Assembly: GCA_025453495.1 (NCBI GenBank)
Contig: JALOQM010000001.1
Span: 155,161-219,160 of the forward strand
Reading direction: 5' to 3'
From: Minisyncoccota bacterium
Lineage (GTDB): Bacteria > Patescibacteriota > Minisyncoccia > Phycocordibacterales > UBA9973
DNA length: 64,000 nucleotides
Below are positions 20,603 through 37,113 of the stretch, piece after piece. Each line of letters starts with the position of its first letter. Positions within the stretch are counted from its first letter, which is position 1. Both the position numbers and the translations under genes were made by a program. The notes under the pieces are model-generated. The model had not been told where the DNA came from and did not search any database. It saw only the letters and a program-made list of their open reading frames with translations.

Positions 20603-20800
20603 ATGGAACCAATACAACTTGAAGAAATAAATACCATTCTCTCGGACACCCTCCGCAAGGTCGTGAACCGGGAGATATCGCTCAAGCAAGCATCCATGAT
20701 TGCCAAGCTTGCGATGACGCTCTCGAGAAACATCGCCAATACCGAGCTGAAGGATCGGGTCGAATTCCTCGAAAGCATGCTGCAAAAAACACGCATATGA
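20603..20800 (+). CDS. Hypothetical small protein (65 aa)
   Basis: Coupled start/stop with both neighbours. Confidence 0.35.
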   Translation: MEPIQLEEINTILSDTLRKVVNREISLKQASMIAKLAMTLSRNIANTELKDRVEFLESMLQKTRI

Positions 20801-22295: not shown

Positions 22296-22715
22296 TTATC
22301 CAATTACAATATTTTCTCCATTACCAAATTCCATTTCTTTATACATAATCTCGCCTGATTCATTCTTCTTATAAGGAAGTGTGGCGGAAATTACTTTATT
22401 TTCAGCATCCTCCAGATGAATAGAAATTGCACCATCAGTATTTCCTGCATATAGATTCGCATTAAAAGCAATACCGAAAGCATGTAAATCATGTTCTTGC
22501 TTTTTTACTTGGAAACTCTGCATGAGAGAATCAATGACTTCTTTTGGGGTGGGATGTTTTTCTAAAAAATCATTTTCAACGGCAACTATTTCATCTTTTG
22601 AGTTTAAATACATACCGAACGGATAAAATTCACCATGTTGGATTAGCATTTTCTGAGCAAAAGGAACTAGAGCGTTTAGTAACTTATCAAGTTGTGTGCG
22701 TTCTTTTTCATTCAT
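22296..22715 (-). CDS. Candidate immunity protein for the RHS toxin
   Basis: 139-aa ORF overlapping the stop of the 2042-aa toxin gene by 4 nt, the typical toxin/immunity arrangement. Confidence 0.45.
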   Translation of the reverse strand: MNEKERTQLDKLLNALVPFAQKMLIQHGEFYPFGMYLNSKDEIVAVENDFLEKHPTPKEVIDSLMQSFQVKKQEHDLHAFGIAFNANLYAGNTDGAISIHLEDAENKVISATLPYKKNESGEIMYKEMEFGNGENIVIG

Positions 22716-22718
22716 GTT

Positions 22719-25700
22719 TTATTCACTTGTGCCAGAAAGGGCATTACCAATATTTTTCAATGTCGACTTTACACCTCCTAATGCGTTTTGCAAAGGGCCT
22801 GAGAGACGAGTATCCGGGCGAACGTGTAAATCAAGACTATAGTTTGCGTCTTTCGCATAACTTACAAAATCTTTCATTTGGTTTGTGTAATTCAGACGTG
22901 CAACATTTTTAACTTCCATGAGAGATTTTTTTGAGTGATCCAATCCATCGGGTATACGATAGCTAGCAGTTCCAGTAGCGGATTCTATTCTTTCAGTATT
23001 TTTTACAATACCGCTGGCAAGTTCGCCCGCTCTTCCTTTCGCTGCATTTTCGGCAATATCACCTAATACTTTACCTTTTGGCACTTCTCCTGCGGTAACA
23101 GCGCCAAGTATTGCCATAGGATAGTTTCCTTGCTTTGCATCAGTAATAGCTTGAGAAAGTCCGTATTGGCCAACAGGCGTTGTAAGTGATTGCAAGAATG
23201 ATGTAATTTGTGGAGCATTCATTGCGATATACGCCGCAGCAAAAATAAGTTCTCCTGCAAATTTACCACTTGCATCGCTCATCGTAATCGGATTATTCCT
23301 TCCGTATGAATAGCTGTTCAGTGACTGCGGATCGCTCAGGATACTCGTCATATCCCTGCCCGACAGTGCTTTTGTCGGTTTTTCGTCACCAATAGTTAAA
23401 AATACCGGATCCTGAGAAATAAACTTCCCAACATTCCCCTTGTAGTAACGCGCATTCAAGTAATCGAGTCCTGTATCGTTGTCATGAATCTGCCCCACAT
23501 ACTTTCTCTGTTCATTATACGCCCCAGACGAGATGCGGGATTCGCCGAATGGGTAATAATCGAGTTGCTGAGAAATTGCACCTGAGGCGTCAGTGACGGC
23601 GGTAGTTGAACCGAGGTGATCGGTATGGATATAATACGGCGTCACTGTGACCGTCGGATTAGTAACAGTTTCGATCGTGGCGACAAGGGTGCTTCCTGCA
23701 TAGACTTGCTTGGTCTTCTTCGTACCGTCATCGTTGTAATACTTGTTCGGGTATGAGATGTCAGTCGTGCCTGTAACATAGCGGACGCGGTTACCTTCGT
23801 GGTCGTACCAGTAGTTTGCGGTCACTGAGCCGTCAGTACTCGAAACAAGCTGATCGCGGTAGTTCCAGGTATGCGTGAACGTGCCGTCTGACGTCAGATT
23901 GCCGTCATTGTCGTACGTGCGAGTAATACTGTTAATTTTTGTCGCAGCATGCGGATTCGCATACCCGGTGCCGGCATAGACGTATGCGCCCGCTGGACCA
24001 GAGAGCAGATTGCCGAGCGCATCGTAAGCGAATGAATGCGTGTAGTCACCGCCGCTTGCCGTGCCGGTAATGACAGCGTCAGTCAGACGATAGAGTGCGT
24101 CATATGAATACGTAGCGGTCTTTGCAGTATCAGTATCGGATGCATCATCAAGTTCGGTGATATTGCCGACCGGATCATACACATATGCGAAATCCTGCAC
24201 ATGACGGGTCGAATTCGTCGTCAAACGATTGGTTAGGCGGTAGAGCGCTGAAGCAGCATAGGTGTTCATCGTCGTCACGCCGTTCGCATCATTCTGCGTC
24301 TGGACCTGATCCGTCGGACTGTAGTCGAAGTTAGTAATGAGCGCAGTGAACGTGCGCGCAGACGGTTCCCTACGATCAACTGATTCGAGCAAACCGGCAG
24401 TATTGTAGGTGTAGCGAATCTCGGACATATCGGGATAGACGACTGAGGATATATTCCCCTGTCGATCGTAGAACGTGGACGTCGTATAGGTGTTTCCGTT
24501 GATGACCTTGATTTCGTTGACGACCGTGCCTCTCGAATTGTAGAGGTAGGATGTGTCCGCTCCGAGAAGCATGGTCACTGAGCAGAGTTTGCCCGTACCA
24601 TTCGTGCAGCTTGAGTACGAATACGCAATATCCGTGTCGGTGGTTGCAGTGTTGTCTTCCGAAGTGACCTGATTGACGTCGTTATAGGCGTAGTTTGTCG
24701 TCAGTGCGTTCGGACTTACTGTCTGAATAATGTTTCCTGCATCGTCATACGTATATGTCCATATGCCATAGGTTGCATCAGACACAGCGTGCGTGTCTTG
24801 CGCAGTCAGACGACGATCGAGGCCGTCATACGTGAAATTGCGGACGTTCCCGAGCGCATCGGTTATCTTCGTAAGTTTGCCGTTCAAATTCCATTCGTAG
24901 TTCGTGGTATAAGCGCTTGCAGTCGCATAGAATTCGTCGACAGCGGACAAGTTCTCATATGCGTCGTGATAATAACGCTTCATGTTTCCTGCTGGATCAG
25001 TGACAGTGGTCATCCAGTCGTCGTAGGCATTCGTCGTCGTACCAACTGCGTTCGTCGATGTGAGTACGCGACCAATTGGGTCATATGCGTACGTAGTGTA
25101 GAGCGCCGTAGTGGTTGTCGGTGATGTACGAGCAGTACCCGTGCTTGTATAGCGGAGTGATTCTTTCAAGGTCTTGCCGCGAGCATCATATGCCTTATCG
25201 CTCACGTTGAAAGTATTTGATGCTTCCGCTTCTTTGCGCTCCTGGATCAGGCGACCGAGGCCGTCGAAGTACTGATAGGTATCTGCCGTTGTCGAGGTGT
25301 CGAGATAGTCGGTGCGCTGTACTTTTACCGCACCGGAAGTGTCGGTATATGCATATGCCGTTTTTGCAACTGGAGAATACGGTGAAGTACTATCGGGAAT
25401 TTTTTCAGTGAGCACGCGATCAAGGCCGTCATAAACAGTTTGGTAGACGAAGCTGTTCTGATCGGTCACCTGCTTCGGCTTGCCGAGCGAGTAGTCATAG
25501 ACATACTGCGTCGTATGTGAGAGCGGGTCGGTAACAGTTGTTGGGTAGAGATTATAGGTATCGTATGAATACGAGGTTACCTTTCCACGCGGATCGGTAT
25601 CAGAAGTGACAAGACCATATGAGTTATACGCTTTCTGACTATTAATGTAGGTTGTCGACGCTTTCCAATCTTCAACCTTAGTCTGATTACCTTTGTTTAC

Positions 25701-28700
25701 CGATCCATATGAAAGCGTATCGTAATAGTATTTCGACTCTTTGACGGTGGTGGAAGATGCGTCAGTCACTGTGCTGATCTTTGGCACCACCACTCGGGTC
25801 GTCGTGTTTGCCGCATACACATTTGTCGTGGTGCGCTTGTCGGAACCGGTATCAGTGAATGAGCCGTCTGATGCCACTGCATTTACCCTACCCCATTCGG
25901 TCTTCGTCAGGAGCGAGCCGTCCGTGTTGTCATAGGTATATTCGGTCGCAGTATCGGCATGATCTGAATCGCCATCATACGTCAGCACAGTCTGGCGCGC
26001 GAGCTTCACGAAATCGTGGTCAGTGCCGATGTTGTAGTGATCCCACTTATTGACCGTCAGGCGATAGAGATTGTTCGAGCTGTCACGTTCTTCGACACGG
26101 TACGGCTGACCTATTTTTGCAGGGATATCGTTGTATTCACCGTTTGATGTATCAGTGCCATTACCCTGGTGGTAAAAGGTCTTCGTGACATTGCCGACTT
26201 CATCGGTTGTCGTGACGATATTGAAGCCAGCGAGCGTTCTATGTCCGTCTGAGTAGTACTGATACTTGCCGTCCTGATACGAGTACTGTCTCGTTCCGGT
26301 CGTGCCGAATGCGTCGTTCGTCGTGATGTCTTTGACGACTGTTATGGACTGGGACGGACTTCGGGTTATCGGATTCTTGTCATTAATAGGCTGTTCCTTA
26401 TATGTAATGGACATCGAGCCGCCCGCAGGAGCAGTAATGGTTGAAAGATAATCGGATTTTGAACCGGTATTGAGCCAGACGGCATTTGGGTTCGTGATGT
26501 TTGTACTGTTGTTATAGGCAAATATCCAGTCTGGTAGTCCGTCGTTATTTAGATCAGAAAGTCTTGTGTCATAATCAAATCCTACCTGATTTCCATTTGG
26601 ATAGGTTGGCATGGTCCAGCTTGCAAGTAGCCAACCTGTCCCAGTACTAAGCCAAACCTTGTTAGGATTGATAGTGTTTGTGTTGTTGTTATAAGCATTT
26701 ATCCAATCTGGCAGATTATCTCCATTAATATCTGTAAGCTGGGTATCGTAGGCAAATCCGACATGATTACCATTTGTGTATGTAGGCATGGTCCAAGAAA
26801 CTGCTGTCCACCCAATTCCTGTATTCAGCCAGACAGTATTTGGACTGGCTGCTGTTGGGGAATTGTTGTCATATCCATGAATAAAGTCAACAAGACCATC
26901 GGCGTTTACGTCAATAAGTTTGTTCGTATAATGAAATCCAACCTGATTGCCTGTTAGATAAGTCGGCATCGTCCAACTTGCTGATGTCCAGCCAGAGCCG
27001 GTATTCAACCATACTGCATTCGGATTCGTGGTACTCGTATTATTATTAAAGGCATAAATAAAATCTGGAAGAATATCTCCGTTTATATCCACGAGTTGCG
27101 TGTTTGTATGAAACCCGACCTGATTGCCGCTTGGATATAGCGGCATGTTCCACGATGCGTTCGACCAGCCCGATCCAGTGTTAAGCCAGACCGTATTTGG
27201 GTTTACTGTGCTTGTATTGTTGTTGTAAGCATAGATCCAGTCAGGTAAACCATCTCCATTGAGATCGATCAACTGCGTATTTACTGTATGAAAACCTACC
27301 TGGTTACCACTTGGATAAGTCGGTATAGTCCATGATGCTGATGACCAACCCGATCCATTATTGAGCCAGACCGCATTCGGATTCGCGGTGCTTGTATTGT
27401 TATTATAAGCATAGATCCAATCGGGTAGACCATCGCCATTGAGATCAATCAACTGGGTATTCAAAGTATGAAAGCCCACTTGCCCGCCAGTTGGAAATGT
27501 CGGAAACGTCCATGACGCGAGCGACCAGCCAGATCCGGTATTAAGCCACACAGCGTTTGGATTCGTGGTGCTCGTATTGTTATTGAGCGCATACACGAAG
27601 TCCGGCAAATTATCACCGTTTACATCCACAAGCTGCGTTGCGGAAGCGAACCCTACTTGTCGGAGGTCCGGATAGACAGGCATCGTCCATGACGCGAGCG
27701 ACCATTCATCATCCACAGTCTGATAATCGAATGACATCGCCGGGAGTACCGTCGGCGTGCCGCTTTCGTCATAACCCGTTTCGGTAATTGAAGAAAGGAG
27801 CGAACGATTCTGGTTGTGTCCAGGTAGGTATACAAGGTCGTACTTGCGAGTATTTGTACCGTTAATTTTTGCAACAATGCTCGTAACAAGCGAAGCCGGA
27901 GCGACTGAGAAAGCAGGATTATAGACAGTCACGACATCGGGGCGCGAGCCTAACGTAAAGTCGATTTCGAAAATTCCGTCAGTGGTTCCAAAACCAGTGT
28001 AAAAAATCTTCGATGGATAAATCTGCCCTGCGCTTTTGGTATATTCATAGCGGACGAAGTTATCATTCGTATCGCGCGTCTCTTCAAGCATCCACTTATA
28101 GATATTTCCCGAGTTGTCTTGGCGAGCTTGGGCGTTTGCACCGAAGGTATATTTCACACCCTTTTTATCGGTTACCACCCATCCGTTGGAGACGCGTTCG
28201 TATCGCAAGAAATCTCCCTTTTCAGAACGAGGTGCGTAAAGATTTGATCCGAGCGGAACAAGCTCCCCAGAGAGAGATGACGAAAACACATCGCCTGTCG
28301 TATAGAGGTCTTCCGTACCGGTGCGATTGACGCGCTCGATGTATGGAATATTGACGGACCAGCCGTAGCCGACGACAGAGTCGTTAACTTGATTCTCGCT
28401 ATTGTACATAAGCGAGAGATCAGGCGTCATGTCATTTCTGCCTGGTGGAACCTGAATCTTGTAGGTATGGACGAATGCCCCTGTCAGGTTGTCGATTTCA
28501 GGAGAAAGCAATCCTTTTGAATCCTGCGGCGGAAGCGGATCAGGATCTACTTCTGGCGCTTGAGGGGCTGGCGGCTCTATCGGCGGAGCTGCTTGCTGGT
28601 TTTCTTCAGAAACCTGAGTTTCAGTTTCTTCGCTAACGGTTGGCGTCTCAGTCTGTACTTCTGGCTCAGGAGTTATAACAGTTTCCTGAGTTGCTTCCGT

Positions 28701-28847
28701 ATTCGCTGTTTCTTCAGCGAATACGGTCAGGACAGGAGAAAAAAAGATTGAAAATACAAGAACGCATACCGCCAGCTTCCTAAAAAGACCGGATGCTGAT
28801 AATGGGTTTTTTGCGATATGCATATATTGTTTTTCTTGTTTTAACAA
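22719..28847 (-). CDS. Giant secreted SpvB-domain / FG-GAP beta-propeller / RHS (YD-repeat) polymorphic toxin (Tc-toxin TcB-TcC-like fusion) with a variable C-terminal tip
   Basis: 2042 aa. Signal peptide, then a Pro/Glu-rich linker, then an SpvB-like region (...GYGWSVNIPYIERVNRTGTEDLYTTGDVF...). About eight repeats of VDxNGDxLPDxxYAYNNNTSTxNPNAVWLNTGSGW (FG-GAP-like). Many YD repeats (YTYDALGN, YAYDPIGR, FTYDGLDRR, YTYDDAGN...). An RHS-core-like DYYPFGESR...YYKGNVGKFISQDP...NNPITMSDASGKF. A C-terminal domain of about 200 aa containing IPDGLDH...EVKNV, a possible PD-(D/E)xK motif. Confidence 0.85.
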   Translation of the reverse strand: MLKQEKQYMHIAKNPLSASGLFRKLAVCVLVFSIFFSPVLTVFAEETANTEATQETVITPEPEVQTETPTVSEETETQVSEENQQAAPPIEPPAPQAPEVDPDPLPPQDSKGLLSPEIDNLTGAFVHTYKIQVPPGRNDMTPDLSLMYNSENQVNDSVVGYGWSVNIPYIERVNRTGTEDLYTTGDVFSSSLSGELVPLGSNLYAPRSEKGDFLRYERVSNGWVVTDKKGVKYTFGANAQARQDNSGNIYKWMLEETRDTNDNFVRYEYTKSAGQIYPSKIFYTGFGTTDGIFEIDFTLGSRPDVVTVYNPAFSVAPASLVTSIVAKINGTNTRKYDLVYLPGHNQNRSLLSSITETGYDESGTPTVLPAMSFDYQTVDDEWSLASWTMPVYPDLRQVGFASATQLVDVNGDNLPDFVYALNNNTSTTNPNAVWLNTGSGWSLASWTFPTFPTGGQVGFHTLNTQLIDLNGDGLPDWIYAYNNNTSTANPNAVWLNNGSGWSSASWTIPTYPSGNQVGFHTVNTQLIDLNGDGLPDWIYAYNNNTSTVNPNTVWLNTGSGWSNASWNMPLYPSGNQVGFHTNTQLVDINGDILPDFIYAFNNNTSTTNPNAVWLNTGSGWTSASWTMPTYLTGNQVGFHYTNKLIDVNADGLVDFIHGYDNNSPTAASPNTVWLNTGIGWTAVSWTMPTYTNGNHVGFAYDTQLTDINGDNLPDWINAYNNNTNTINPNKVWLSTGTGWLLASWTMPTYPNGNQVGFDYDTRLSDLNNDGLPDWIFAYNNSTNITNPNAVWLNTGSKSDYLSTITAPAGGSMSITYKEQPINDKNPITRSPSQSITVVKDITTNDAFGTTGTRQYSYQDGKYQYYSDGHRTLAGFNIVTTTDEVGNVTKTFYHQGNGTDTSNGEYNDIPAKIGQPYRVEERDSSNNLYRLTVNKWDHYNIGTDHDFVKLARQTVLTYDGDSDHADTATEYTYDNTDGSLLTKTEWGRVNAVASDGSFTDTGSDKRTTTNVYAANTTTRVVVPKISTVTDASSTTVKESKYYYDTLSYGSVNKGNQTKVEDWKASTTYINSQKAYNSYGLVTSDTDPRGKVTSYSYDTYNLYPTTVTDPLSHTTQYVYDYSLGKPKQVTDQNSFVYQTVYDGLDRVLTEKIPDSTSPYSPVAKTAYAYTDTSGAVKVQRTDYLDTSTTADTYQYFDGLGRLIQERKEAEASNTFNVSDKAYDARGKTLKESLRYTSTGTARTSPTTTTALYTTYAYDPIGRVLTSTNAVGTTTNAYDDWMTTVTDPAGNMKRYYHDAYENLSAVDEFYATASAYTTNYEWNLNGKLTKITDALGNVRNFTYDGLDRRLTAQDTHAVSDATYGIWTYTYDDAGNIIQTVSPNALTTNYAYNDVNQVTSEDNTATTDTDIAYSYSSCTNGTGKLCSVTMLLGADTSYLYNSRGTVVNEIKVINGNTYTTSTFYDRQGNISSVVYPDMSEIRYTYNTAGLLESVDRREPSARTFTALITNFDYSPTDQVQTQNDANGVTTMNTYAASALYRLTNRLTTNSTRHVQDFAYVYDPVGNITELDDASDTDTAKTATYSYDALYRLTDAVITGTASGGDYTHSFAYDALGNLLSGPAGAYVYAGTGYANPHAATKINSITRTYDNDGNLTSDGTFTHTWNYRDQLVSSTDGSVTANYWYDHEGNRVRYVTGTTDISYPNKYYNDDGTKKTKQVYAGSTLVATIETVTNPTVTVTPYYIHTDHLGSTTAVTDASGAISQQLDYYPFGESRISSGAYNEQRKYVGQIHDNDTGLDYLNARYYKGNVGKFISQDPVFLTIGDEKPTKALSGRDMTSILSDPQSLNSYSYGRNNPITMSDASGKFAGELIFAAAYIAMNAPQITSFLQSLTTPVGQYGLSQAITDAKQGNYPMAILGAVTAGEVPKGKVLGDIAENAAKGRAGELASGIVKNTERIESATGTASYRIPDGLDHSKKSLMEVKNVARLNYTNQMKDFVSYAKDANYSLDLHVRPDTRLSGPLQNALGGVKSTLKNIGNALSGTSE

Positions 28848-28961: not shown

Positions 28962-29765
28962 TTATTTTTCCTCTGCCTTATTGAGTATCAGGGAAATCAT
29001 CGCGAGCGGAACCTCATAATCACGAAGTTCAAGAATATATGGCGTCTCCTTTCCATCCTTGAAAATATGGAGGCCGTCTGAGCGAAGCTCAAGCGAACCG
29101 ATCTTCTTAAACGGGAATGAGAACTGCTTGCGATAACCAAGATAGCCGACGCGCTGATTCGTGATATAGAACACGCCAGAATCCTCCTTGTCCATGATCT
29201 CCTTGGAGACGCTTTGTACGCCTATCGATCCGACGCGGTATCGCACGCCTTTCATGATCTTTATCGAACCAGTAAAGCCGCCGTAGTTCACGCGCGTGGT
29301 GACTTTCTTGCGCTTCATCATGTCTGCGGCAATAGCCCAATGAAGTACCTCGTCTTCTTTGAACACGACATTCAGTTCAGCTTGCGCGTTTTCGATTGTC
29401 GGCAATATGCCCTTGTCTACGAGCGCAAGCGTATAATACTTGTTGAAATTGTCTTGGTTGAAGGCGATGTCGCTTTTCGTGAGACTGAAATGGTTGAGCA
29501 ATTTCTCAAGCGCATTCTTTTCGTCATCAGTGATCCGCTTGTCTGAACCCATAGCGGTAAAAACAGAAGCGACCGAGGTCTTATGGATTGCTTTCACATC
29601 GTCATCAGACAAACCAAACTCCTTTTGCATTTCCATGAGTTTCTCGCTTTCATCGAAGGTCAGTTCACTATCGGCAAGGAACGCTGTCATTGACTCTTGA
29701 TACTTCTTGAGTCCATCCCGTTTCTTTAGGTACCGTTTAACAAATCCGGGTAGATGTAGTTTCAT
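28962..29765 (-). CDS. Hypothetical protein (267 aa) upstream of the RHS toxin gene on the same strand
   Basis: ORF; 3-nt gap to the upstream membrane protein gene. Confidence 0.4.
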   Translation of the reverse strand: MKLHLPGFVKRYLKKRDGLKKYQESMTAFLADSELTFDESEKLMEMQKEFGLSDDDVKAIHKTSVASVFTAMGSDKRITDDEKNALEKLLNHFSLTKSDIAFNQDNFNKYYTLALVDKGILPTIENAQAELNVVFKEDEVLHWAIAADMMKRKKVTTRVNYGGFTGSIKIMKGVRYRVGSIGVQSVSKEIMDKEDSGVFYITNQRVGYLGYRKQFSFPFKKIGSLELRSDGLHIFKDGKETPYILELRDYEVPLAMISLILNKAEEK

Positions 29766-29767
29766 GG

Positions 29768-30385
29768 CTAGTTTATCTCTTCAACCTTAACCTCCCAATT
29801 TATTCCGCTGATAACCCGGATGTAATAACGGCCCGGAGCGATATTGCGGTATGTTGTCTGTCCTTCTCCTTGTTCGGATCCTTCGGTTGAGATGGAAAGA
29901 CCAGGTCCAATATAGCCGCCGTTTTCCTTTTCTAGGCTTATGCTCGAGAAACTGCCGACTGTTGAACCGGTAGTCGTTGCAGTAACGCGTACTTTCTTGC
30001 CCGTGATATTGAAAGACTCGGAATCTTGATTGCCTTTGCCTTTGAGTGAATACACTTCCGTGAAGACTTCCTCTTGAGGTGCGGATTTTTCGCTCGTTCC
30101 AGATTGAGAATCAATTACTTGGCGGGCTTCATCTATTGAACCTGATACGATTAGGCCTCCAATGATGAGAATGGCCGCGATGACGAATCGCGCCATGCCG
30201 GAGAAATTGATCTTGAGATATTTCTTGGTGAGCGTGTTGACGATTGGCAATAAAATGACTCCGGCGATGACGACGGCGACATGACCACTCGCAAGACCTG
30301 CGATGATAGTAAGTACGCCAAGGACCCAGAGAACAATTGAACCTGCTGAGACTGATTTAACGGTCTCGTTGTTTTCGTTATGCAT
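29768..30385 (-). CDS. Hypothetical membrane protein (205 aa)
   Basis: Two to three N-terminal TM helices, then an S/T/G-rich extracellular segment. Confidence 0.4.
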   Translation of the reverse strand: MHNENNETVKSVSAGSIVLWVLGVLTIIAGLASGHVAVVIAGVILLPIVNTLTKKYLKINFSGMARFVIAAILIIGGLIVSGSIDEARQVIDSQSGTSEKSAPQEEVFTEVYSLKGKGNQDSESFNITGKKVRVTATTTGSTVGSFSSISLEKENGGYIGPGLSISTEGSEQGEGQTTYRNIAPGRYYIRVISGINWEVKVEEIN

Positions 30386-31060: not shown

Positions 31061-31945
31061 TTATATTCCCAAATCACCAAGGGCATCCTCCAGTAAAGGA
31101 ATGATGTCTTTGAAATACACCCTTAACTTTTTTAGGTCGTTAGCGCCATTTGCTCTTCTTTTAATATTTTCCCATTCTTTACGTAGTAAGTACTCATCTC
31201 CAGATAGATTGGTGAGGTTAAAAGACATCTTATCTATGATGTAACTTTTTTCTATTTTCTTATTTAGAAATATTACAGGATAATTTGAATCATCCCAGAA
31301 AAGGAGTTCGTAGGCTGTCGCCACCCCTTTCGAGCCGTTTACTCCCATAACAACTTCAGACCCCTGCGCAAAAAATCTATGTTCAAAATCCTCCCACATT
31401 GCTGGGGTAAATGATTTTGAATCCATTTCTTGCAAGAGTACATTTTCTATAAAGGATGAGAGAGTTTGATAAGCAAAAGTCACTAGTTTTTCGTCTCTTT
31501 TATCATCGGGATTTTTATCTGCGTGAAATAGATTATTTCTGACTTCATACCAGAACTCCACAACATTCATAAAGTCATTCTCGTCAGCAATTTTACCTTG
31601 ATTATCTAGACCGGCTCTGTGATGATAACTCGCATTATTCCACCAACCATTTCCAGTTGTCATCGGTTCTCTTTGTAGGTAGTTGATGAGGTCTATCAAT
31701 CTTTCTTTGTAATCTGGCTCACCATTTATAAAAGCAGTCCATCTTGCTTGATATGTCTCATCGTTTTTGAAATGTTGTATATACGAGCGTTCTTTTGTAT
31801 TCCCAGAAGCTACCTCGATGTCTTGTTTGGAATATTTATATTTTTTCAAAAAAGCTTCAAAGGCGAGATACTCAAAAACATATCGAGAAAAATAATCTTC
31901 TTTCGCCTTTTCGTGCCAATTTCTTATAAGGGAGATATCTGTCAT
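31061..31945 (-). CDS. HEPN-like (Rx4H) domain protein, possible Abi-type defence protein
   Basis: Probable start MTDISLIRNWHEK; ...EVRNNLFHADKN... matches the HEPN R-x4-H motif; AT-rich. Confidence 0.4.
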   Translation of the reverse strand: MTDISLIRNWHEKAKEDYFSRYVFEYLAFEAFLKKYKYSKQDIEVASGNTKERSYIQHFKNDETYQARWTAFINGEPDYKERLIDLINYLQREPMTTGNGWWNNASYHHRAGLDNQGKIADENDFMNVVEFWYEVRNNLFHADKNPDDKRDEKLVTFAYQTLSSFIENVLLQEMDSKSFTPAMWEDFEHRFFAQGSEVVMGVNGSKGVATAYELLFWDDSNYPVIFLNKKIEKSYIIDKMSFNLTNLSGDEYLLRKEWENIKRRANGANDLKKLRVYFKDIIPLLEDALGDLGI

Positions 31946-32169
31946 GTAAGTTGATCGCTTTAAGCATTCGCAAGGCAACTATATCATGCGTAGACAGGAC
32001 TAAAAAGACGATGGAATTTCTTGATTTTTAGGCATTTCGGTTACCAACAGCTACCACTCGGGACGCTCTGGACTCCTAAAAGGCATTGCGTCATTCATGT
32101 AGGTGTATGAACTATACACAAACACAAGCGCCATTAGGGACGACGGCCAAAGTAGTCGTTCCAATCAAA

Positions 32170-33438
32170 ATGAAATACTGCCTTTATGCGAGAAAGTCGA
32201 CAGAGTCGGAAGAGCGGCAGGTACTCAGTATCGACAGTCAAATCAAGGAGATGCTCCAATTAGCAGAGCGCGAAGGACTTGAGATCGTGACGATGAAGCG
32301 CGAAAGCCACTCTGCCAAGGAAACAGGCCAGCGGCCGGTCTTCAACGAGATAATACAGGAACTACATCAAGGAAAGTTCAACGGTATCCTGACATGGGCA
32401 CCAGATCGCATAAGCAGAAATGCTGGCGACCTGGGCAAGATCGTCGACCTCATGGATGCAGGAAAATTACACCAGATACGCACCTTCGGACAGACGTTCG
32501 GCAACAATCCAAATGAGAAATTCCTGCTCATGATTTTAGGCTCGCAGGCCAAGCTCGAAAACGACAACCGAGGCATTAATGTCAAACGTGGGCTGCGAAC
32601 CCGGGTAGAGATGGGCTTATGGCCGGGCATGGCACCGCTCGGCTACCTAAATCAGAAGATGCTCGACAGGAAGTGCCAGATCGCCGTCGATCCCGACCGC
32701 GCCCCGATCGTTCGCAAAATGTTCGAAAAAGTAGCATATGAAGGATGGAGTGGACGGAAGGTCTACAACTGGCTTAGATTTGATCTGAACTTCCATACCA
32801 GAGGCAACAGGCCGCTGACGCTCTCGGGAGTGTATCGAATATTCAATATGCCAATCTATTACGGACCATTTGAATACCCGAGAGACTCCGGCAATTGGTA
32901 CGACGGCAAGCATGAGCCGATCATAACTAAGGAGTTATATGAAAAAGCGCAGGAACAGCTCAAACGTGACAAGATCGTCCGAGAGAATCGAGAGTTTGCA
33001 TTCACTAAGCTATTTACCTGCGGTATGTGTGGCTCAGGCATATCGGCACAGGAGAAATACAAGGAACTGAAAGATGGCACGAATGCCAAGTACGTCTACT
33101 ACTCATGCTCGAAAGCGCGAGACCGAAACTGCAAAAACAAGTATATTCGTGAGGAAGAACTGATCGAGGAGCTACTTAAGATCATCGACAAACTAAACAT
33201 TAATGAATTAGGGATGAGAATGAAGCTTGAGGAGGAAATCAAGCGATTCAATAGACTTCAGAGGCTTGCAACGAAAGGAACGCCCAAGTACAACATCAAC
33301 GAAGATGACGTGAATACAAGAGAGTATGCCAAGTATGTGCTACGAGAAGGAACGCCACTTGAGAAGCGAGAGTTGATGGGTCATCTGAGGAGTAGACTGT
33401 TGCTGAAGGACAAGAAGATTACGCTACTTGATCAATAA
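32170..33438 (+). CDS. Large serine recombinase (resolvase/invertase N-domain, recombinase domain and zinc ribbon)
   Basis: Internal start MKYCLYARKSTESEERQ (catalytic Ser region); ...RISRN...; GINVKRGLRTRVEMG; Cys cluster CGMCGS...YYSCSK; C-terminal coiled coil. Upstream 32050-32075 carries TACCACTCGGGACGC. Confidence 0.85.
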   Translation: MKYCLYARKSTESEERQVLSIDSQIKEMLQLAEREGLEIVTMKRESHSAKETGQRPVFNEIIQELHQGKFNGILTWAPDRISRNAGDLGKIVDLMDAGKLHQIRTFGQTFGNNPNEKFLLMILGSQAKLENDNRGINVKRGLRTRVEMGLWPGMAPLGYLNQKMLDRKCQIAVDPDRAPIVRKMFEKVAYEGWSGRKVYNWLRFDLNFHTRGNRPLTLSGVYRIFNMPIYYGPFEYPRDSGNWYDGKHEPIITKELYEKAQEQLKRDKIVRENREFAFTKLFTCGMCGSGISAQEKYKELKDGTNAKYVYYSCSKARDRNCKNKYIREEELIEELLKIIDKLNINELGMRMKLEEEIKRFNRLQRLATKGTPKYNINEDDVNTREYAKYVLREGTPLEKRELMGHLRSRLLLKDKKITLLDQ

Positions 33439-34420
33439 AATAAGCTTTAAACTCATCCGAGTAGAAGGTAAATTCATTGTAGCTCTCAGCAAACTTTTTA
33501 TTTGTAACATACACGTCCATTGGTTGAGCGTTTGTGTCTATAACAACACAATTAGCTTGATTATTTGTAATAAATGGGAGCTTTCTGCTGTTCCATGCAT
33601 CATATGCAAGGTGTTCTGAATCCGCATTACCAAAGAGTGTAAGCTTGGGCTTAAGCACATCAAGAAAATCATATGACCTGTCTGATTTTCGTCCATGGTG
33701 AGGAGCGATAAGTACGTCAATATCTTTTACATCATCACTATGGTTTTTGAGAATATGATCCCATGTTTTATCGTGGGAATCTCCAGCAAGAAGAATTTTG
33801 CCACCCTTTGAACGGTACAAGATGACATAGGAAGAATCATTATAATCCTCTGCGTCATTTCCTTCTTCAACCAACTTCTTAGTCGGAGATAGGATATATA
33901 ATCCGTCGCCACCACCTTTGCCATTCTCATCATGATTATAATGATGACCTCTTGACCCAGAATAAAGAACGAGTCGTCGAGGGTCACTTTGCGGGTTTTC
34001 ATCACGCATCTTCTTGTAAAACTCCCAATCTTCTGGATCATAAGGGCTACCTTCTTCAAATTCCTTTTCGCATGTATTGTCTGTATCCCAAAAGTTCTGA
34101 GGTTTAAAAATATCAAATAAGACCTTGATCCCTGACATATGATCCATGTCGGGGTGTGTCAAAATAAATCTAAAAACTTTATCCACGCCAAATTCCTTTA
34201 AGTATCTTATTGGATTTACGGGCAATGACTTCTGATTGAAATTACCAGAAACACTTAGTGTTTCAACAACTGCCTCTCTAACGATTTTTTTGAGCTCGTA
34301 GTTCTTTTCATCAGCAATTGCGCTACCGTTACAGATATCGAAAACACTTACATGTCCTGAGGGGTGTTGAATAATCGAGCAATCACCATTCTTAACATTT
34401 AAAAAGTGAAATACTCCCAT
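33419..34420 (-). CDS. Metallo-beta-lactamase-fold protein of the ComEC/Rec2 C-terminal-domain type
   Basis: 333 aa; N-terminal ...FLNVKNGDCSIIQHPSG...; THPDMDHMSG (HxHxDH-like) and LIAPHHGRKSD are typical of ComEC-type metallo-beta-lactamase domains. Confidence 0.6.
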   Translation of the reverse strand: MGVFHFLNVKNGDCSIIQHPSGHVSVFDICNGSAIADEKNYELKKIVREAVVETLSVSGNFNQKSLPVNPIRYLKEFGVDKVFRFILTHPDMDHMSGIKVLFDIFKPQNFWDTDNTCEKEFEEGSPYDPEDWEFYKKMRDENPQSDPRRLVLYSGSRGHHYNHDENGKGGGDGLYILSPTKKLVEEGNDAEDYNDSSYVILYRSKGGKILLAGDSHDKTWDHILKNHSDDVKDIDVLIAPHHGRKSDRSYDFLDVLKPKLTLFGNADSEHLAYDAWNSRKLPFITNNQANCVVIDTNAQPMDVYVTNKKFAESYNEFTFYSDEFKAYFIDQVA

Positions 34421-34425
34421 AGTTT

Positions 34426-35121
34426 TTATTTACCTACATATTCTTGAAAAAGAGAGCGAGCGTATCTCTTTCCGTGATTATGAATTAGTTTTTTATTCAA
34501 AAGCATCAGGAACAGATACGCCAGTGCCATGGCAAGTGAAAGATAGTATGCCGCATGGATGTCTTTAACTAGAGAGAATACAAACATGTTTATAATAGAG
34601 ACAAATACAGAAATAACCGAACATCCGATCAAGTTTCTTATAAACCCGTATTCAATATTTCTCGACAGCAATAGTCGACCATCTTTCAGCGAATGACGAA
34701 TAAGCGTTACTGCTTCAGCAATCGCTTTTCTTGCCTCGGTTTCGTTTCGGATCTCTTCATCGGGAATAAAAATTTGGATGTTATAGTCAACCTTTATTTT
34801 GTCATGAATTTTTTGCTTGAATTGTAGCGTGTACTCACTGTTAGAATGTAAGAGAAAATCTGTTGTGGGCATTCTAGTCTCATCTCGACTAAACCAAGTT
34901 GACTCATAGAGGTCTTTACCTATAGATCTTCCAATAAATGAAAGTAGTATTAGAAAGACAACGGGGGTGGATATGTCGCCGACCCAGCTCACTCCAAAAA
35001 TTAGTTTGAAGAAACCAGACAAATGGTCGTTGAGGAAAAAGAAATAAAGAACTAGAAAAGGAAAGGATGCGAGTATTGCAGGAAGGATTCTTGCCTGAAT
35101 TGTATATTGGTTGAGTTTCAT
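34426..35121 (-). CDS. Hypothetical polytopic membrane protein (231 aa)
   Basis: Two N-terminal and two C-terminal TM segments; lies between the two metallo-beta-lactamase-fold genes with 3-5-nt gaps. Confidence 0.4.
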   Translation of the reverse strand: MKLNQYTIQARILPAILASFPFLVLYFFFLNDHLSGFFKLIFGVSWVGDISTPVVFLILLSFIGRSIGKDLYESTWFSRDETRMPTTDFLLHSNSEYTLQFKQKIHDKIKVDYNIQIFIPDEEIRNETEARKAIAEAVTLIRHSLKDGRLLLSRNIEYGFIRNLIGCSVISVFVSIINMFVFSLVKDIHAAYYLSLAMALAYLFLMLLNKKLIHNHGKRYARSLFQEYVGK

Positions 35122-35123
35122 AT

Positions 35124-36179
35124 TTATTCTTCTACATAATCATGGAATGGCTCCTGTACTGCAGGACCCCATCCTTGTCGGGTGGGAGCGAGATGTGGAT
35201 GACAAAGCGTCATATTTTTAGTTACATATACAAGTGCGCCATACTTTTTGAGTCCGTTGATGACCTTCTTCGATGGGTGTTTATCTGAGTTTTGAGGCGC
35301 AGAAATCGAAGCTATTACTCCGTTTATCCTTTTGAGAACTTTACTACTCATATTTCGCTTACTGCCATGATGAGGAACATCGAGCAGATTTAGTCCTGTG
35401 AGAACTATACCCTTGGTGTCTGCGTAGTCTGCAGCCAGATGGAGTGCCGTTTTACCTGCATCTCCAGTGAAAAGGATCTTATGTCCGTCTATGTTCAAAA
35501 AGACAATTGCACTTGAATTATTTTCTGCGGAGGTTGAATCCGTGTCATCATCAAGAAGATCGATGTGGATAAAATCCTGAATTTTCTTTGCAACGGTCTC
35601 GATCGCTCTTACAGCGGGCGCTAAAAATCCCAAGGCGGCAACAGGCTCTGGGGTAGAACGGAAATGAGCAAGAAGACCCTGATAATATTCCTTCGATGGA
35701 CCAAGTACGTGCAGTGCATCATTGAATCCAGTAACACCCTGAAACGGTTCAACGATTTGGACACCTTTCTTCTTTGCAATTGCCTCAAGATCACTCGCAT
35801 GTTGCAGAGCTTTTTCCAATTTATCACTCAAGCCAGAGGATGTGATACGCCCGTTAACGAAATGCTTTTTAATATCTTCTGCATGTTCCCATGGCCTGTG
35901 CATAGCTAGAGTAGTTACATTGAGTTTTTCTAGGACAACAGTGAGTCCAGACGCGTGATCGGCATCAGGATGGGTACAGAATACAACGTCGACAATTTCT
36001 GTGCCGTAGTATGTTTTGATGTGATTAACAAGTGTCTCTCCAGACTCTTTTGTTCCTCCGTCGATTACGATAACAGTTTGCTCTGTTCTTGGGCCTGTCA
36101 GGTTTCCGAAGCGAAGTGCGATAGCGTCGCCTCCTTTTTCTCCTTCTCCTACAGGAATGTAGTCAATTTCATAAGCCAT
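35124..36179 (-). CDS. Metallo-beta-lactamase-fold protein of the ComEC/Rec2 C-terminal-domain type (paralogue of 33419..34420)
   Basis: 351 aa; VIDGGTKESGE...VDVVFCTHPDADHASGL...LLDVPHHGSKRNMSS. Confidence 0.6.
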   Translation of the reverse strand: MAYEIDYIPVGEGEKGGDAIALRFGNLTGPRTEQTVIVIDGGTKESGETLVNHIKTYYGTEIVDVVFCTHPDADHASGLTVVLEKLNVTTLAMHRPWEHAEDIKKHFVNGRITSSGLSDKLEKALQHASDLEAIAKKKGVQIVEPFQGVTGFNDALHVLGPSKEYYQGLLAHFRSTPEPVAALGFLAPAVRAIETVAKKIQDFIHIDLLDDDTDSTSAENNSSAIVFLNIDGHKILFTGDAGKTALHLAADYADTKGIVLTGLNLLDVPHHGSKRNMSSKVLKRINGVIASISAPQNSDKHPSKKVINGLKKYGALVYVTKNMTLCHPHLAPTRQGWGPAVQEPFHDYVEE

Positions 36180-36191
36180 ATAAAGTTAGTG

Positions 36192-36812
36192 CTAAAATTT
36201 TGGTAATACTGACACGACAACTCCTTGGATATGAAAATCATCCGTAAGAATTATTGGCTGATGAGTGGGGTTTGTCGATTTTGGCTTCAGCATTACAAAA
36301 TCACCTTGAGGATGATACTCCTTAACGGTAGCGTCATCATCTATAAGAGCTACGACTTTTTGACCAGGATCAGCTGAGGACTGTTGCTTCACCAGAAGCA
36401 AGTCTCCGTCGTTGATGCCAGCTTTATTCATAGAGTCGCCATTTGCACGAAGTAGGAAGTACTTTGATCCTGGCTTCACCATACTTACAGAAACTGGGAT
36501 CATAGCTTCGACATTTTCTTCGGCAAGCATAGGCGCGCCACAGGATACACTTCCAATCAAGGGAAGCGAGATGGTTCGGGCCACGATACCTTCTCTTAGG
36601 TCTTTAATGAACTGAAGGGTGCCGTCGGTCTTTTTCTTTAGAAATCCTCCAGACTCAAGTTCTTCGAGAAGCAACATCGCTGATCGAGGAGACTTATAAT
36701 CCAAAGCATCCATCAGCTTTCTGACAGAGGGAACCTTTCCGAAATGCATCACGTTGTTGCGGATGAACTTCAGGGCTTCACGTGCTTTTTGGCTTAACTC
36801 TTTGTCACTCAT
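36192..36812 (-). CDS. lexA: LexA-type repressor (wHTH plus S24 peptidase)
   Basis: 206 aa; C-terminal GDSM (Ser nucleophile) and a downstream Lys (VKEYHP); N-terminal HTH. Confidence 0.8.
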   Translation of the reverse strand: MSDKELSQKAREALKFIRNNVMHFGKVPSVRKLMDALDYKSPRSAMLLLEELESGGFLKKKTDGTLQFIKDLREGIVARTISLPLIGSVSCGAPMLAEENVEAMIPVSVSMVKPGSKYFLLRANGDSMNKAGINDGDLLLVKQQSSADPGQKVVALIDDDATVKEYHPQGDFVMLKPKSTNPTHQPIILTDDFHIQGVVVSVLPKF

Positions 36813-36830
36813 GATACAAAGTGTATCATA
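36811..36830. promoter_or_regulatory. Perfect 7-3-7 palindrome TGATACA-AAG-TGTATCA overlapping the lexA start codon (candidate LexA box)
   Basis: Seen directly; TTGACT (-35-like) about 35 nt upstream on the coding strand. Confidence 0.4.
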
Positions 36831-36960
36831 CTGTATACTTAAAAGTCAATAACGTAAAAGAGCGACACTGATCGCTCTTTTTGCTACAACCATGAAGCCT
36901 TGTGGGTCGCGCTACCTCCTTAGGCAGTCGGGATACAAAACTAACAGGTTGTCAATGCGG

Positions 36961-37048
36961 AGGAGGTGAGATTCGAACTCACGGACCACGTAAATGGTCT
37001 CCTGTTTTCAAGACAGGTGCCTTCAACCACTCAGCCACTCCTCCGTAT
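36961..37048 (-). tRNA. tRNA-Ser (anticodon TGA), class II with long variable arm
   Basis: Minus strand GGAGGAGTGGCTGAGTGGTTGAAGGCACCTGTCTTGAAAACAGGAGACCATTTACGTGGTCCGTGAGTTCGAATCTCACCTCCTCCG. Confidence 0.85.
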
Positions 37049-37113
37049 AGGCAGAGCTTAACAGAAAACCCCCTTGAAATCAAAGCTGATTTCAAGGGGG
37101 TTTTCTTAGGGGT

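What the first reader, a model, noticed from the sequence alone, without database searches (positions are those of the whole stretch)
31061..36190. Island of HEPN-like gene, large serine recombinase, two ComEC-type metallo-beta-lactamase-fold proteins and a membrane protein, abutting lexA and tRNA-Ser
A large serine recombinase is followed on the opposite strand by three tightly packed genes with 3-5-nt gaps: a metallo-beta-lactamase-fold protein, a polytopic membrane protein, and a second metallo-beta-lactamase-fold protein. Both metallo-beta-lactamase proteins have ComEC C-terminal-domain hallmarks (GDxxxI..P.G, HPDxDHxxG, PHHGSK/R). A HEPN (Rx4H) protein lies upstream. lexA and tRNA-Ser(TGA) follow immediately, and tRNA loci are common integration hot spots. 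Two standalone ComEC-nuclease-like proteins bracketing a membrane protein is not a module I recognise. It could be a DNA-uptake or DNA-degrading device, or a defence module mobilised by the recombinase.
Basis: partly seen in the sequence, partly recalled or inferred. Interest (0 to 1): 0.62.

Follow-up and report, generated by a model that had tools for sequence, protein, structure and literature searches.

The report
LexA-controlled MBL nuclease plus membrane-protein cassette
A small mobile island next to tRNA-Ser in a Candidatus Pacebacteria genome carries a serine recombinase and one operon encoding its own LexA repressor, two ComEC-like nucleases and a membrane protein. This is a variant of an untested candidate anti-phage system that also sits in prophages, conjugative elements and the known P2 phage defence hotspot.

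Summary
All six genes and the tRNA are real and at the stated coordinates. lexA is not a flank. It is the first gene of a tightly packed operon, lexA-MBL1-TM-MBL2 (36812 to 33419, minus strand).

This block plus the 3' end of the recombinase gene is 88% identical in DNA, and 94-99% in protein (dN/dS 0.02-0.04), to a distantly related genome. No other DNA in the window aligns with the 21 kb held from that genome. There it sits beside a different tRNA-Ser.

MBL1 matches PADLOC candidate PDC-M48B over its full length (1.6e-86). In 68 of 76 loci from other species, a small membrane protein follows MBL1 directly. This partner comes from at least three families. The window's 231-aa type is not PDC-M48A.

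LexA-type regulators sit directly upstream in 25 of 80 loci. Near relatives of this recombinase flank the cassette in six loci, often next to a tRNA.

The HEPN gene is probably a real HEPN protein, but it is independent cargo.

Best reading: a DNA-damage-inducible, membrane-associated DNA-degrading defence or exclusion module. The function is inferred, not shown. A split ComEC is rejected.

The parts
36957..37044 (-). tRNA-Ser(TGA). Its 3' end faces the cassette and is the likely insertion target or boundary.
   Evidence: ARAGORN. Related cassettes abut tRNA-Ser(GCT) in L001 and L051, tRNA-Arg(GCG) in L022 and tRNA-Gln in L124. In L126 and L026 a tRNA (Asn, Lys) lies beside or overlapping the recombinase gene at the far end of the island. 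In L022 the homologous tRNA-Ser(TGA) site with syntenic RuvX, tRNA_bind and PilM is empty.
36820..36849 (-). Promoter-like site for the operon: TTGACT, 18 nt, TG-n-TACACT. The -10 ends 8 nt before the lexA ATG, so the mRNA may be leaderless.
   Evidence: Consensus scan. The sequence is conserved in L001. The 16-mer ACAGTATGATACACTT is shared with a Chitinophagales locus, L073.
36812..36828 (.). Perfect palindrome TGATAC-N5-GTATCA. It overlaps the -10 box and the lexA start codon. Candidate LexA operator.
   Evidence: This is the only perfect copy in the 64-kb window and is identical in L001. Analogous repeats such as TGTGTACA-N2-TGTGTACA lie upstream of F-type lexA in L025, L031 and L019. Binding was not tested.
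36192..36812 (-). LexA-type repressor (winged-helix LexA_DNA_bind plus S24 peptidase). First gene of the operon.
   Evidence: Pfam. TIGR00498 scores 157.6 bits against a cutoff of 110.95. The cleavage-site equivalent Cys-Gly, the GDSM serine and the VKEY lysine are visible in the sequence. It is 99% identical to L001, and 48-61% identical to cassette-linked LexA in Bacteroidetes, Chitinophagales, Deltaproteobacteria and Bdellovibrionales MAGs.
35124..36179 (-). MBL1: cytoplasmic ComEC-like metallo-beta-lactamase-fold hydrolase, predicted to be a nuclease. It is the conserved core of the system.
   Evidence: PADLOC PDC-M48B (PDLC04676) 1.6e-86 over the full length, with weaker hits to LmuA, RTasMBL and Avs1a. 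1956 homologues in the database. H70, D72, D74, H75, D240, H270 and H271 are invariant. ComEC MBL domains are the best PDB matches.
34426..35121 (-). D-type membrane partner: 231 aa, with two TM helices, a roughly 100-aa helical domain, then two more TM helices.
33419..34420 (-). MBL2: second, divergent ComEC-like MBL-fold hydrolase. Optional third component.
   Evidence: PADLOC PDC-M48B (PDLC04673) 1.3e-34. The motifs THPDMDH, GDSHD and PHHGRK are in the sequence. A second MBL lies within 2.5 kb of MBL1 in 10 of 81 loci. It is 95% identical to L001 with dN/dS 0.026.
32107..33438 (+). Large serine recombinase. It looks intact and is the probable mobiliser of the island.
   Evidence: Pfam Resolvase, Recombinase and Zn_ribbon_recom. 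PHROG integrase 7.7e-66. Close relatives (E 1e-120 to 1e-197) lie beside MBL1-TM in L010, L011, L016, L025, L028 and L051 and in L124. In L001 only its last ~95 codons remain, fused to a ParB_N fragment.
31061..31945 (-). HEPN-domain protein: N-terminal HEPN fold with Rx4H, plus a C-terminal alpha/beta domain. A neighbour, not part of the cassette.

Best explanation
What it is: lexA-MBL1-TM-MBL2 is one operon. It is a LexA-regulated variant of the PADLOC candidate defence system PDC-M48, which pairs a ComEC-like MBL nuclease with a small membrane protein. Together with a large serine recombinase, the operon is cargo on an island of about 5 kb inserted at the 3' end of tRNA-Ser(TGA).

Proposed working, all steps inferred:
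1. The LexA-type repressor binds the palindrome that overlaps its own promoter and keeps the operon low.
2. RecA-stimulated self-cleavage, triggered by DNA damage or by phage or plasmid replication, derepresses the operon.
3. The 4-TM protein presents a conserved domain, predicted from its charge distribution to face the cytoplasm, which recruits or activates the cytoplasmic MBL nuclease(s) at the inner face of the membrane.
4. The nucleases degrade DNA there. This may be incoming foreign DNA, or the cell's own DNA as in abortive infection.

Shown here: gene content, operon packing, mobility, the family relationships, and the recurrent gene linkages.
For: - Operon: gaps are 12, 2 and 5 nt, all on one strand. 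One promoter-like site overlaps a unique perfect palindrome.
- Recent horizontal transfer as a unit: window 33154-37037 is 88% identical to L001, and nothing else in the window aligns with the 21 kb held for L001. Cassette proteins are 94-99% identical, whereas the PilM proteins encoded on the two contigs share only 26% over a 127-aa local match.
- All four genes are under strong purifying selection, dN/dS 0.02-0.04.
- Core pair: a protein with at least two TM segments follows MBL1 directly in 68 of 76 loci from many phyla. The partners fall into at least three families, one of which is PDC-M48A.
- MBL1 is PDC-M48B at 1.6e-86.
- LexA-type gene directly upstream in 25 of 80 loci, 15 co-directional and 10 divergent. 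This includes Bacteroidetes, which a published survey reports as lacking canonical LexA (PMC8565304).
- Regulator identity does not track MBL1 identity, so the regulator has been recruited repeatedly.
- A conserved inverted repeat, GGATAAC-N-GTTATC, lies 31-78 nt upstream of MBL1 in four divergent loci.
- Defence or mobile context. Examples are an EcoRII/Vsr/DUF2326 island, a position next to an E2/E1/JAB-patatin-MBL cluster, and a PLD-SNF2 plus MmeI-like island and an ICE. The MBL also occurs on 29 IMG/VR viral contigs and on 57 plasmids.
- P2-like coliphages carry MBL plus a PDC-M48A-type TM protein right after gene A. This is the gpA-gpQ defence hotspot of PMC9122126.
- One D-type module is fused to a PNP_UDP_1 effector domain, and one MBL2 carries an AGS_C sensor domain.
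Against: - No member of this family has been tested. PDC-M48 is only a candidate, and no paper in the library mentions it.
- Nuclease activity is inferred from similarity to ComEC, LmuA and Avs1a MBL domains. MBL-fold enzymes have many other substrates.
- The window's lexA passes NCBI's LexA equivalog cutoff, so it could also be the cell's only SOS regulator. Other lexA copies could not be checked.
- LexA is absent from most loci (55 of 80), so SOS control is not a defining feature of the family.
- No interaction between the TM protein and the MBL proteins was modelled.
- No att sites were identified.
Confidence: 0.6

Rival explanations
1. Selfish function of a phage-satellite-like or integrative element. 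The repressor is the element's own CI-like switch. MBL+TM then serves the element itself, for example host-DNA degradation, lysis or release on induction, addiction, or interference with a helper phage.
For: In L010, L011, L016, L025, L027, L028 and L075 the cassette sits in compact elements together with TerL (phrog_38, 1.9e-76), TerS and a ParB-N6_N4 methyltransferase. A B-type serine recombinase was also found in five of these seven loci. The layout, with a repressor co-transcribed with two or three accessory genes, recalls lambda cI-rexA-rexB (background knowledge). The cassette is also present in prophages and ICEs.
Against: The MBL+TM pair also occurs without any repressor, recombinase or packaging genes in most loci. 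It also sits inside classical chromosomal defence islands. The window's island has no packaging genes. Exclusion of competitors by a mobile element is itself a form of defence, so this overlaps the main explanation.
Confidence: 0.15
2. Ordinary SOS DNA-repair operon. lexA is the cell's own SOS regulator, and the MBL proteins are damage-inducible repair nucleases comparable to the MBL/beta-CASP repair nucleases.
For: lexA scores above the LexA equivalog cutoff. It has an autoregulation-type operator. SOS operons often begin with lexA (background knowledge).
Against: The distribution across phyla is patchy, and the cassette proteins show 53-70% identity with homologues from other phyla. A near-identical cassette occurs in a distantly related genome at another locus. 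A syntenic relative, L022, lacks it at tRNA-Ser(TGA). The cassette is found in phages, plasmids and ICEs. The obligatory membrane partner is unexplained by a repair role.
Confidence: 0.1
3. Restriction-modification-like system. A linked DNA methyltransferase protects self DNA from the MBL nuclease.
For: N6_N4 methyltransferases lie within 5 kb in 14 of 81 loci. LexA-methyltransferase fusion proteins occur in L029 and L071, and apparently in L014. A C5 methyltransferase sits next to the LexA-like gene in L126. The window itself has homologues of both methyltransferases at 18191-20222.
Against: Most loci have no methyltransferase nearby. The methyltransferase family varies while MBL1 stays highly conserved. 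ParB-methyltransferases are common orphan genes of phages (phrog_498). In the window they lie 12 kb away, beyond an Rhs toxin locus.
Confidence: 0.1
4. Split or degenerate ComEC: a DNA-uptake device built from separate parts.
For: Both MBL proteins are most similar to ComEC MBL domains among solved structures. There are weak TIGR00361 hits. Patescibacteria are thought to rely on DNA uptake (background knowledge).
Against: TIGR00361 scores are 57 and 35 bits against a cutoff of 190. The membrane protein has four TM helices and no Competence-domain hit. There is no OB-fold or DUF4131 part. The genes are under strong purifying selection, so they are not decaying fragments. The module is mobile and widespread in taxa that have intact ComEC.
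Confidence: 0.05

Closest known systems
PADLOC candidate system PDC-M48 (PDC-M48A small membrane protein plus PDC-M48B MBL-fold protein). Candidate only, not validated.
   Same: MBL1 matches PDC-M48B over its full length (1.6e-86) and MBL2 matches another PDC-M48B model (1.3e-34). The layout, MBL followed directly by a small membrane protein, is the same. True PDC-M48A partners occur with close MBL1 homologues in other loci.
   Different: The window's membrane protein is a different family. It has no PADLOC hit even at E=10, and hhalign gives 0.4% probability against PDC-M48A-type proteins. The window's version adds a second MBL and a co-transcribed LexA repressor.
ComEC/Rec2 C-terminal MBL nuclease domain
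   Same: It is the closest solved structure by sequence. The HxDxDH-type motif and the PHHGS motif are shared.
   Different: The window's proteins are standalone and lack signal peptides. MBL1 has an insertion of about 70 residues relative to the ComEC domain. There is no Competence channel domain or OB-fold domain. Scores are below the ComEC family cutoff.
MBL-fold effectors of known defence systems: Lamassu LmuA (MBL type), Avs1a, the DRT RT-associated MBL, and the 6A-MBL system enzyme
   Same: The MBL catalytic domain is homologous: LmuA 5.9e-29, RTasMBL 1.1e-22, Avs1a 8.6e-12, and 6A-MBL 2.7e-14 for MBL2.
   Different: None of the partner proteins is present: no SMC-like LmuB, no STAND NTPase, no reverse transcriptase, no E1/E2/JAB. 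NCBIfam scores are far below the cutoffs.
Lambda cI-rexA-rexB, where an S24-family repressor is co-transcribed with an exclusion system that includes a polytopic membrane protein
   Same: The logic of the layout is the same: a self-cleaving S24 repressor gene comes first, followed by a cytoplasmic protein and a 4-TM membrane protein, on an integrative element. This is an analogy from background knowledge.
   Different: No sequence relationship was found. The repressor here has a LexA winged-helix DNA-binding domain. The cytoplasmic partners are MBL hydrolases.

Membership tests
PADLOC PDC-M48 | PDC-M48B MBL-fold protein | tested here: met
   PDLC04676 at 1.6e-86, covering residues 2-350 against 2-356 of a 357-position model.
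PADLOC PDC-M48 | PDC-M48A membrane protein encoded next to the MBL | tested here: not met
   The window's D protein has no PADLOC hit at E up to 10. hhalign of the D family against the M48A-type alignment gives probability 0.4%. A positive control worked: the 168-aa L012 partner hits PDC-M48A at 3.3e-62. A different membrane protein occupies the same position.
PADLOC PDC-M48 | Demonstrated anti-phage activity | not testable with these tools
   No paper in the library mentions PDC-M48.
ComEC/Rec2 (TIGR00361) | Whole-protein score above the family cutoff | tested here: not met
   57.4 bits (MBL1) and 35.4 bits (MBL2) against a cutoff of 190.
ComEC/Rec2 (TIGR00361) | Polytopic Competence channel domain and N-terminal OB-fold domain | tested here: not met
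   No such Pfam hits in any of the three proteins. The membrane protein has only four TM helices.
ComEC/Rec2 (TIGR00361) | MBL domain with metal-binding motifs | tested here: met
   THPDxDH, GD and PHHG are present and invariant. The best PDB matches are ComEC.
LexA (TIGR00498) | Score above cutoff, with LexA winged-helix domain plus S24 peptidase domain | tested here: met
   157.6 bits against 110.95. Pfam LexA_DNA_bind and Peptidase_S24.
LexA (TIGR00498) | Self-cleavage site and Ser/Lys dyad | tested here: met
   The sequence shows V-S-C-G-A-P, a Cys-Gly site as in UmuD, plus G-D-S-M and V-K-E-Y. Cleavage itself was not tested.
LexA (TIGR00498) | Controls a chromosomal SOS regulon | not testable with these tools
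   Only one perfect copy of the candidate operator exists in the 64-kb window. The rest of the genome was not available.
Large serine recombinase | Resolvase catalytic domain, Recombinase domain and zinc ribbon | tested here: met
   All three Pfam domains score above cutoff. PHROG integrase 7.7e-66.
Large serine recombinase | Identifiable att sites flanking the element | tested here: inconclusive
   There is no partial tRNA copy and no convincing direct repeat. Serine integrases need only a very short shared core, so absence of repeats is not informative.
HEPN superfamily (upstream gene) | Rx4-6H motif | tested here: met
   R136 and H141 are invariant in 33 homologues.
HEPN superfamily (upstream gene) | HEPN four-helix fold or a match to a HEPN family model | tested here: inconclusive
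6A-MBL anti-phage system (NF058524) | MBL enzyme above cutoff, plus ubiquitin-like E1/E2/JAB partners | tested here: not met
   53.1 bits against a cutoff of 220. No E1, E2 or JAB genes lie in the island.
Restriction-modification | Cognate methyltransferase adjacent to the nuclease | tested here: not met
   No methyltransferase lies in 31-37 kb. The nearest are at 18191-20222. 67 of 81 loci lack one within 5 kb.

The most novel reading that the evidence does not exclude
A DNA-damage-gated, membrane-anchored ComEC-like nuclease system. It would be an immune or exclusion module that carries its own LexA-type sensor and switch, and spreads with it between phyla, including Bacteroidetes, which otherwise lack canonical LexA. 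The nuclease core can be plugged into at least three unrelated membrane partners. The D-type membrane module would be a general-purpose platform for effectors, since it is also found fused to a PNP nucleosidase domain. The LexA-methyltransferase fusions would then tie the same switch to DNA modification.
Probability: 0.3. Interest if true: 0.75.

Novelty: new variant of a known kind. Interest (0 to 1): 0.55.

Why it matters
- The MBL+membrane-protein pair is widespread. There are about 1956 MBL1 homologues at E up to 1e-5, and 1869 cluster representatives of the D-type partner. It occurs in many phyla and in phages, plasmids and ICEs, yet nobody has tested it.
- The window gives a compact, complete, selection-maintained example in a Candidate Phyla Radiation bacterium (Candidatus Pacebacteria), a group where defence biology is little known.
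- E. coli P2-like phages carry a testable version of the pair in an experimentally established defence hotspot. This makes the question directly approachable at the bench.
- If the LexA link is functional, it would be a clear case of a defence-type module wired to the RecA/SOS signal by a portable repressor.
- It also shows that a gene scoring as a bona fide lexA can be mobile cargo. This matters for reconstructions of SOS regulons.

Tried and rejected
- **att sites.** I searched for a second copy of the tRNA-Ser 3' end and for direct or inverted repeats across 28.8-37.3 kb. Only short, chance-level repeats turned up.
- **Gram-positive SOS box.** GAAC-N4-GTTC gave two hits far from the locus, which is chance level.
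- **Packaging genes in the window.** Homologues of the TerL and TerS seen in related elements were not found by phmmer. ORFs 20227-20601 and 20797-22284 have no Pfam or PHROG hit.
- **Literature.** PDC-M48 returned no papers. The 6A-MBL system is a different system with ubiquitin-related components. Rst_Hydrolase-3Tm is a HAD-like hydrolase, not an MBL. The Patescibacteria SOS paper (PMID 28618189) is not held in the library.
- **HMM drift.** My iterated LexA profile drifted into methyltransferases and recombinases through a chimeric ORF. All LexA counts therefore use single-sequence phmmer hits only.
- **MBL-TM fusion.** The one long protein carrying a D module (P0329) has a PNP_UDP_1 domain, not an MBL domain.
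- **HEPN gene as part of the cassette.** Rejected. An iterative search of the cassette loci found no homologue.


Full report

Yes. The ORF list gives these genes:
- a 305-aa ORF at 31061-31978(-)
- a 450-aa ORF at 32086-33438(+)
- a 333-aa ORF at 33419-34420(-)
- a 231-aa ORF at 34426-35121(-)
- a 351-aa ORF at 35124-36179(-)
- a 206-aa ORF at 36192-36812(-)

ARAGORN finds tRNA-Ser(TGA) at 36957-37044(-).

Pfam confirms a large serine recombinase with Resolvase, Recombinase and Zn_ribbon_recom domains. It also confirms MBL-fold hits for the two hydrolases, and LexA_DNA_bind plus Peptidase_S24 for the last ORF. That ORF passes NCBI's LexA equivalog cutoff, 157.6 against 110.95 bits.

The ComEC-type label is fair. 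Among solved structures, the best sequence matches for both MBL proteins are ComEC MBL domains.

A 100% identical public protein places the window in a Candidatus Pacebacteria MAG.

**2. The unit is an operon that starts with lexA.**

lexA, MBL1, TM and MBL2 lie on one strand, with gaps of 12, 2 and 5 nt.

One promoter-like site, TTGACT-18-TGnTACACT, ends 8 nt before the lexA ATG. A perfect palindrome, TGATAC-N5-GTATCA at 36812-36828, overlaps it. This is the only perfect copy in the window.

MBL2 and the recombinase converge and overlap by 20 nt.

**3. The cassette is mobile.**

Window 33154-37037 aligns at 88% DNA identity to locus L001, a JGI metagenome contig. No other DNA in the window aligns with the 21 kb held for L001.

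Protein identities to L001 are 99% (LexA), 96% (MBL1), 94% (TM) and 95% (MBL2). dN/dS is 0.02-0.04 for all four genes. The PilM proteins encoded on the two contigs share only 26% identity over a 127-aa local match. So a functional four-gene block moved recently between distantly related genomes.

In L001 the block lies beside tRNA-Ser(GCT) and RecG, not tRNA-Ser(TGA) and RuvX. There the recombinase is reduced to its last ~95 codons, fused to a ParB_N fragment.

A more distant relative, L022, keeps the window's flanking synteny: the tRNA-Arg(GCG) block on one side, and tRNA-Ser(TGA), RuvX, tRNA_bind and PilM on the other. It has no cassette at tRNA-Ser(TGA). It carries MBL1-TM next to tRNA-Arg(GCG) instead.

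Other islands abut tRNA-Ser(GCT) in L051 and tRNA-Gln in L124. In L126 and L026 a tRNA (Asn, Lys) lies beside or overlapping the recombinase gene at the far end of the island.

No att repeats were found. For a serine integrase this is not informative.

**4. What is conserved across 81 loci from different species.**

- *Membrane partner.* MBL1 is followed within -160 to +300 nt by an ORF with at least two hydrophobic segments in 68 of 76 loci that have room downstream. The gap is mostly -3 to +20 nt.
- *Partner families.* The partner belongs to at least three families:
  - the window's D type, about 230-250 aa with a 2+2 TM layout, in 45 loci
  - a type of about 162 aa, which is PADLOC PDC-M48A (3.3e-62)
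  - a type of about 215-230 aa, found mainly in Gammaproteobacteria, with a weak Csx27 hit (1.3e-5)
- *Relationship between partners.* D and PDC-M48A are unrelated by profile comparison. D and the 215-230-aa type align co-linearly, but weakly.
- *Second MBL.* Present within 2.5 kb in 10 loci.
- *LexA-type gene.* Directly upstream in 25 of 80 loci, 15 co-directional and 10 divergent.
- *Serine recombinases.* Present in 12 loci. Six of these are close relatives of the window's recombinase (E below 1e-100).
- *N6_N4 methyltransferases.* Within 5 kb in 14 loci.

**5. The LexA link looks functional, not accidental.**

- LexA proteins 48-61% identical to the window's sit next to MBL1 in Deltaproteobacteria, Bdellovibrionales, Bacteroidetes and Chitinophagales MAGs. 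A published survey reports that Bacteroidetes lack canonical LexA (PMC8565304).
- LexA identity does not track MBL1 identity. In L005, MBL1 is 70% identical but LexA only 30%. In L073, MBL1 is 45% identical but LexA 60%. Different S24 regulators have therefore been recruited repeatedly.
- In four loci with the divergent arrangement, a conserved inverted repeat, GGATAAC-N5-7-CTTGTTTAGGTTAT(C/G), lies 31-78 nt upstream of MBL1. Five of the eight matches in 3.9 Mb of searched sequence lie upstream of MBL1, the fifth 1035 nt away.
- In L029 and L071 the LexA-type protein is fused to an N6_N4 methyltransferase. L014 shows an apparent fusion with a partial methyltransferase match.

**6. Context elsewhere is mobile and defence-like.**

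- L005 is embedded among EcoRII, Vsr, a C5 methylase, DUF2326/MC6/CTD10, AAA_15-HNH and a NERD helicase.
- L007 lies next to an E2/E1/JAB-patatin-MBL cluster.
- L125 lies next to PLD-SNF2 and an MmeI-like enzyme.
- L126 lies in an ICE with T4SS coupling proteins and a relaxase.
- Seven loci carry compact elements with TerL, TerS, a ParB-methyltransferase, LexA, MBL1 and TM. Five of them also have a B-type serine recombinase.
- MBL1 homologues occur on 29 IMG/VR viral contigs, on 57 plasmids and in 8 phage records.
- In P2-like coliphages (P2_4E6b, D8, 11W, 12W), the MBL gene and a convergent 165-aa PDC-M48A-type membrane gene lie directly after replication gene A. This is the cos-proximal gpA-gpQ locus that Rousset et al. 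showed to be a hotspot of anti-phage systems (PMC9122126). The pair is not among the systems described in that paper's main text.

**7. The proteins.**

*MBL1 and MBL2.* MBL1 has invariant H70, D72, D74, H75, D240, H270 and H271. MBL2 keeps THPDMDH, GDSHD and PHHGRK. Neither has a signal peptide.

*Membrane protein.* It models confidently (pLDDT 92.3) as an all-helical protein. It has four membrane helices and a conserved helical domain of about 100 residues. That domain and both termini are rich in Lys and Arg, so they are predicted to be cytoplasmic. This topology is an inference. The protein has no solved or viral structural relative. Nearly all of the best-scoring 150 of its 1869 family representatives are standalone. 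One carries an N-terminal PNP_UDP_1 domain, a domain reused by defence systems. One MBL2 homologue carries an AGS_C sensor domain.

**8. The HEPN gene.**

**9. Most likely mechanism (inferred).**

1. A LexA-type repressor holds the operon down through the operator at its promoter.
2. RecA-stimulated self-cleavage during DNA damage or foreign-DNA replication derepresses the operon.
3. The membrane protein recruits or activates the cytoplasmic ComEC-like nuclease(s) at the membrane.
4. DNA is degraded there.

None of these steps was tested. The rival readings are listed separately:
- a selfish function for the element
- a plain SOS repair operon
- a restriction-modification-like system
- a split ComEC

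The split ComEC is effectively excluded.

**10. Novelty.**

The MBL core is already catalogued as the untested PADLOC candidate PDC-M48. The following appear undescribed, in the sense that no paper in the searched library mentions PDC-M48 and general keyword searches turned up nothing relevant:
- the D-type membrane partner
- the second MBL
- the portable LexA switch
- the serine-recombinase and tRNA association

I rate this a new variant of a known kind, of moderate interest.

Noticed in passing
window 18191-19486(+) and 19473-20222(+): A ParB_N-N6_N4 methyltransferase and a second N6_N4 methyltransferase. They are close homologues (9e-127 and 4e-80) of the pair that lies directly beside lexA-MBL1-TM in L010, L011 and L027. 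Here they lie 12 kb away. The next ORF, 20227-20601, has a homologue beside the recombinase in L124. The window may therefore hold a larger, rearranged composite element.
   Followed up: partly
window 22719-28847(-) and 22296-22715(-): A 2042-aa SpvB/RHS/YD-shell polymorphic toxin with a C-terminal Tox-REase-7 domain. It is followed by a 139-aa probable immunity gene. It lies between the methyltransferases and the island.
   Followed up: no
window 28962-29765(-) and 29768-30385(-): A 267-aa protein with a weak TerB hit and PADLOC PDC-S48 hits (1.1e-11). It is tightly coupled to a 205-aa membrane protein. This may be another candidate defence pair just left of the island.
   Followed up: no
L029:2179-3573(-), L071:4376-5977(-), L014:8614-9921(-): Single ORFs that fuse a complete LexA (winged helix plus S24) to an N6_N4 DNA methyltransferase. 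They are divergent from MBL1. The L014 ORF may be an overextended call, because its methyltransferase match is partial.
   Followed up: partly
L010:4808-13432, L025:3925-11747, L028:4119-12710, L016:2426-11759: Compact elements carrying a serine recombinase, TerL, TerS, a ParB-methyltransferase, LexA, MBL1 and TM. No capsid or tail genes were identified among the ORFs that were scanned. They look like phage satellites or remnants.
   Followed up: partly
L126:4484-6106 with tRNA-Asn 4513-4585; L026:7700-9271 with tRNA-Lys 7689-7764; L051, L124: Islands bounded by a large serine recombinase at one end and a tRNA gene at or overlapping the other. tRNA targeting is usually associated with tyrosine integrases.
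   Followed up: no
P0329 (500 aa): A PNP_UDP_1 nucleosidase-like domain (residues 5-242) fused to a D-type membrane module (270-496). This suggests the membrane module is a reusable platform for different effector enzymes.
   Followed up: partly
L127 (NC_049389.1, 29118-30706): In coliphage P2_4E6b the MBL gene is annotated as a tail protein. This is probably a propagated PHROG label (phrog_7043). The gene sits in the gpA-gpQ defence hotspot, alongside a PDC-M48A-type membrane gene.
   Followed up: partly
window 37063-37106: A perfect 20-bp inverted repeat with a 4-nt loop, just 5' of tRNA-Ser. It looks like a strong hairpin, possibly a terminator.
   Followed up: no
L019:11101-12459(+): The second MBL in this deltaproteobacterial locus carries a C-terminal AGS_C nucleotide-sensor domain. 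The gene order is LexA, MBL1, MBL2-AGS_C, TM.
   Followed up: no
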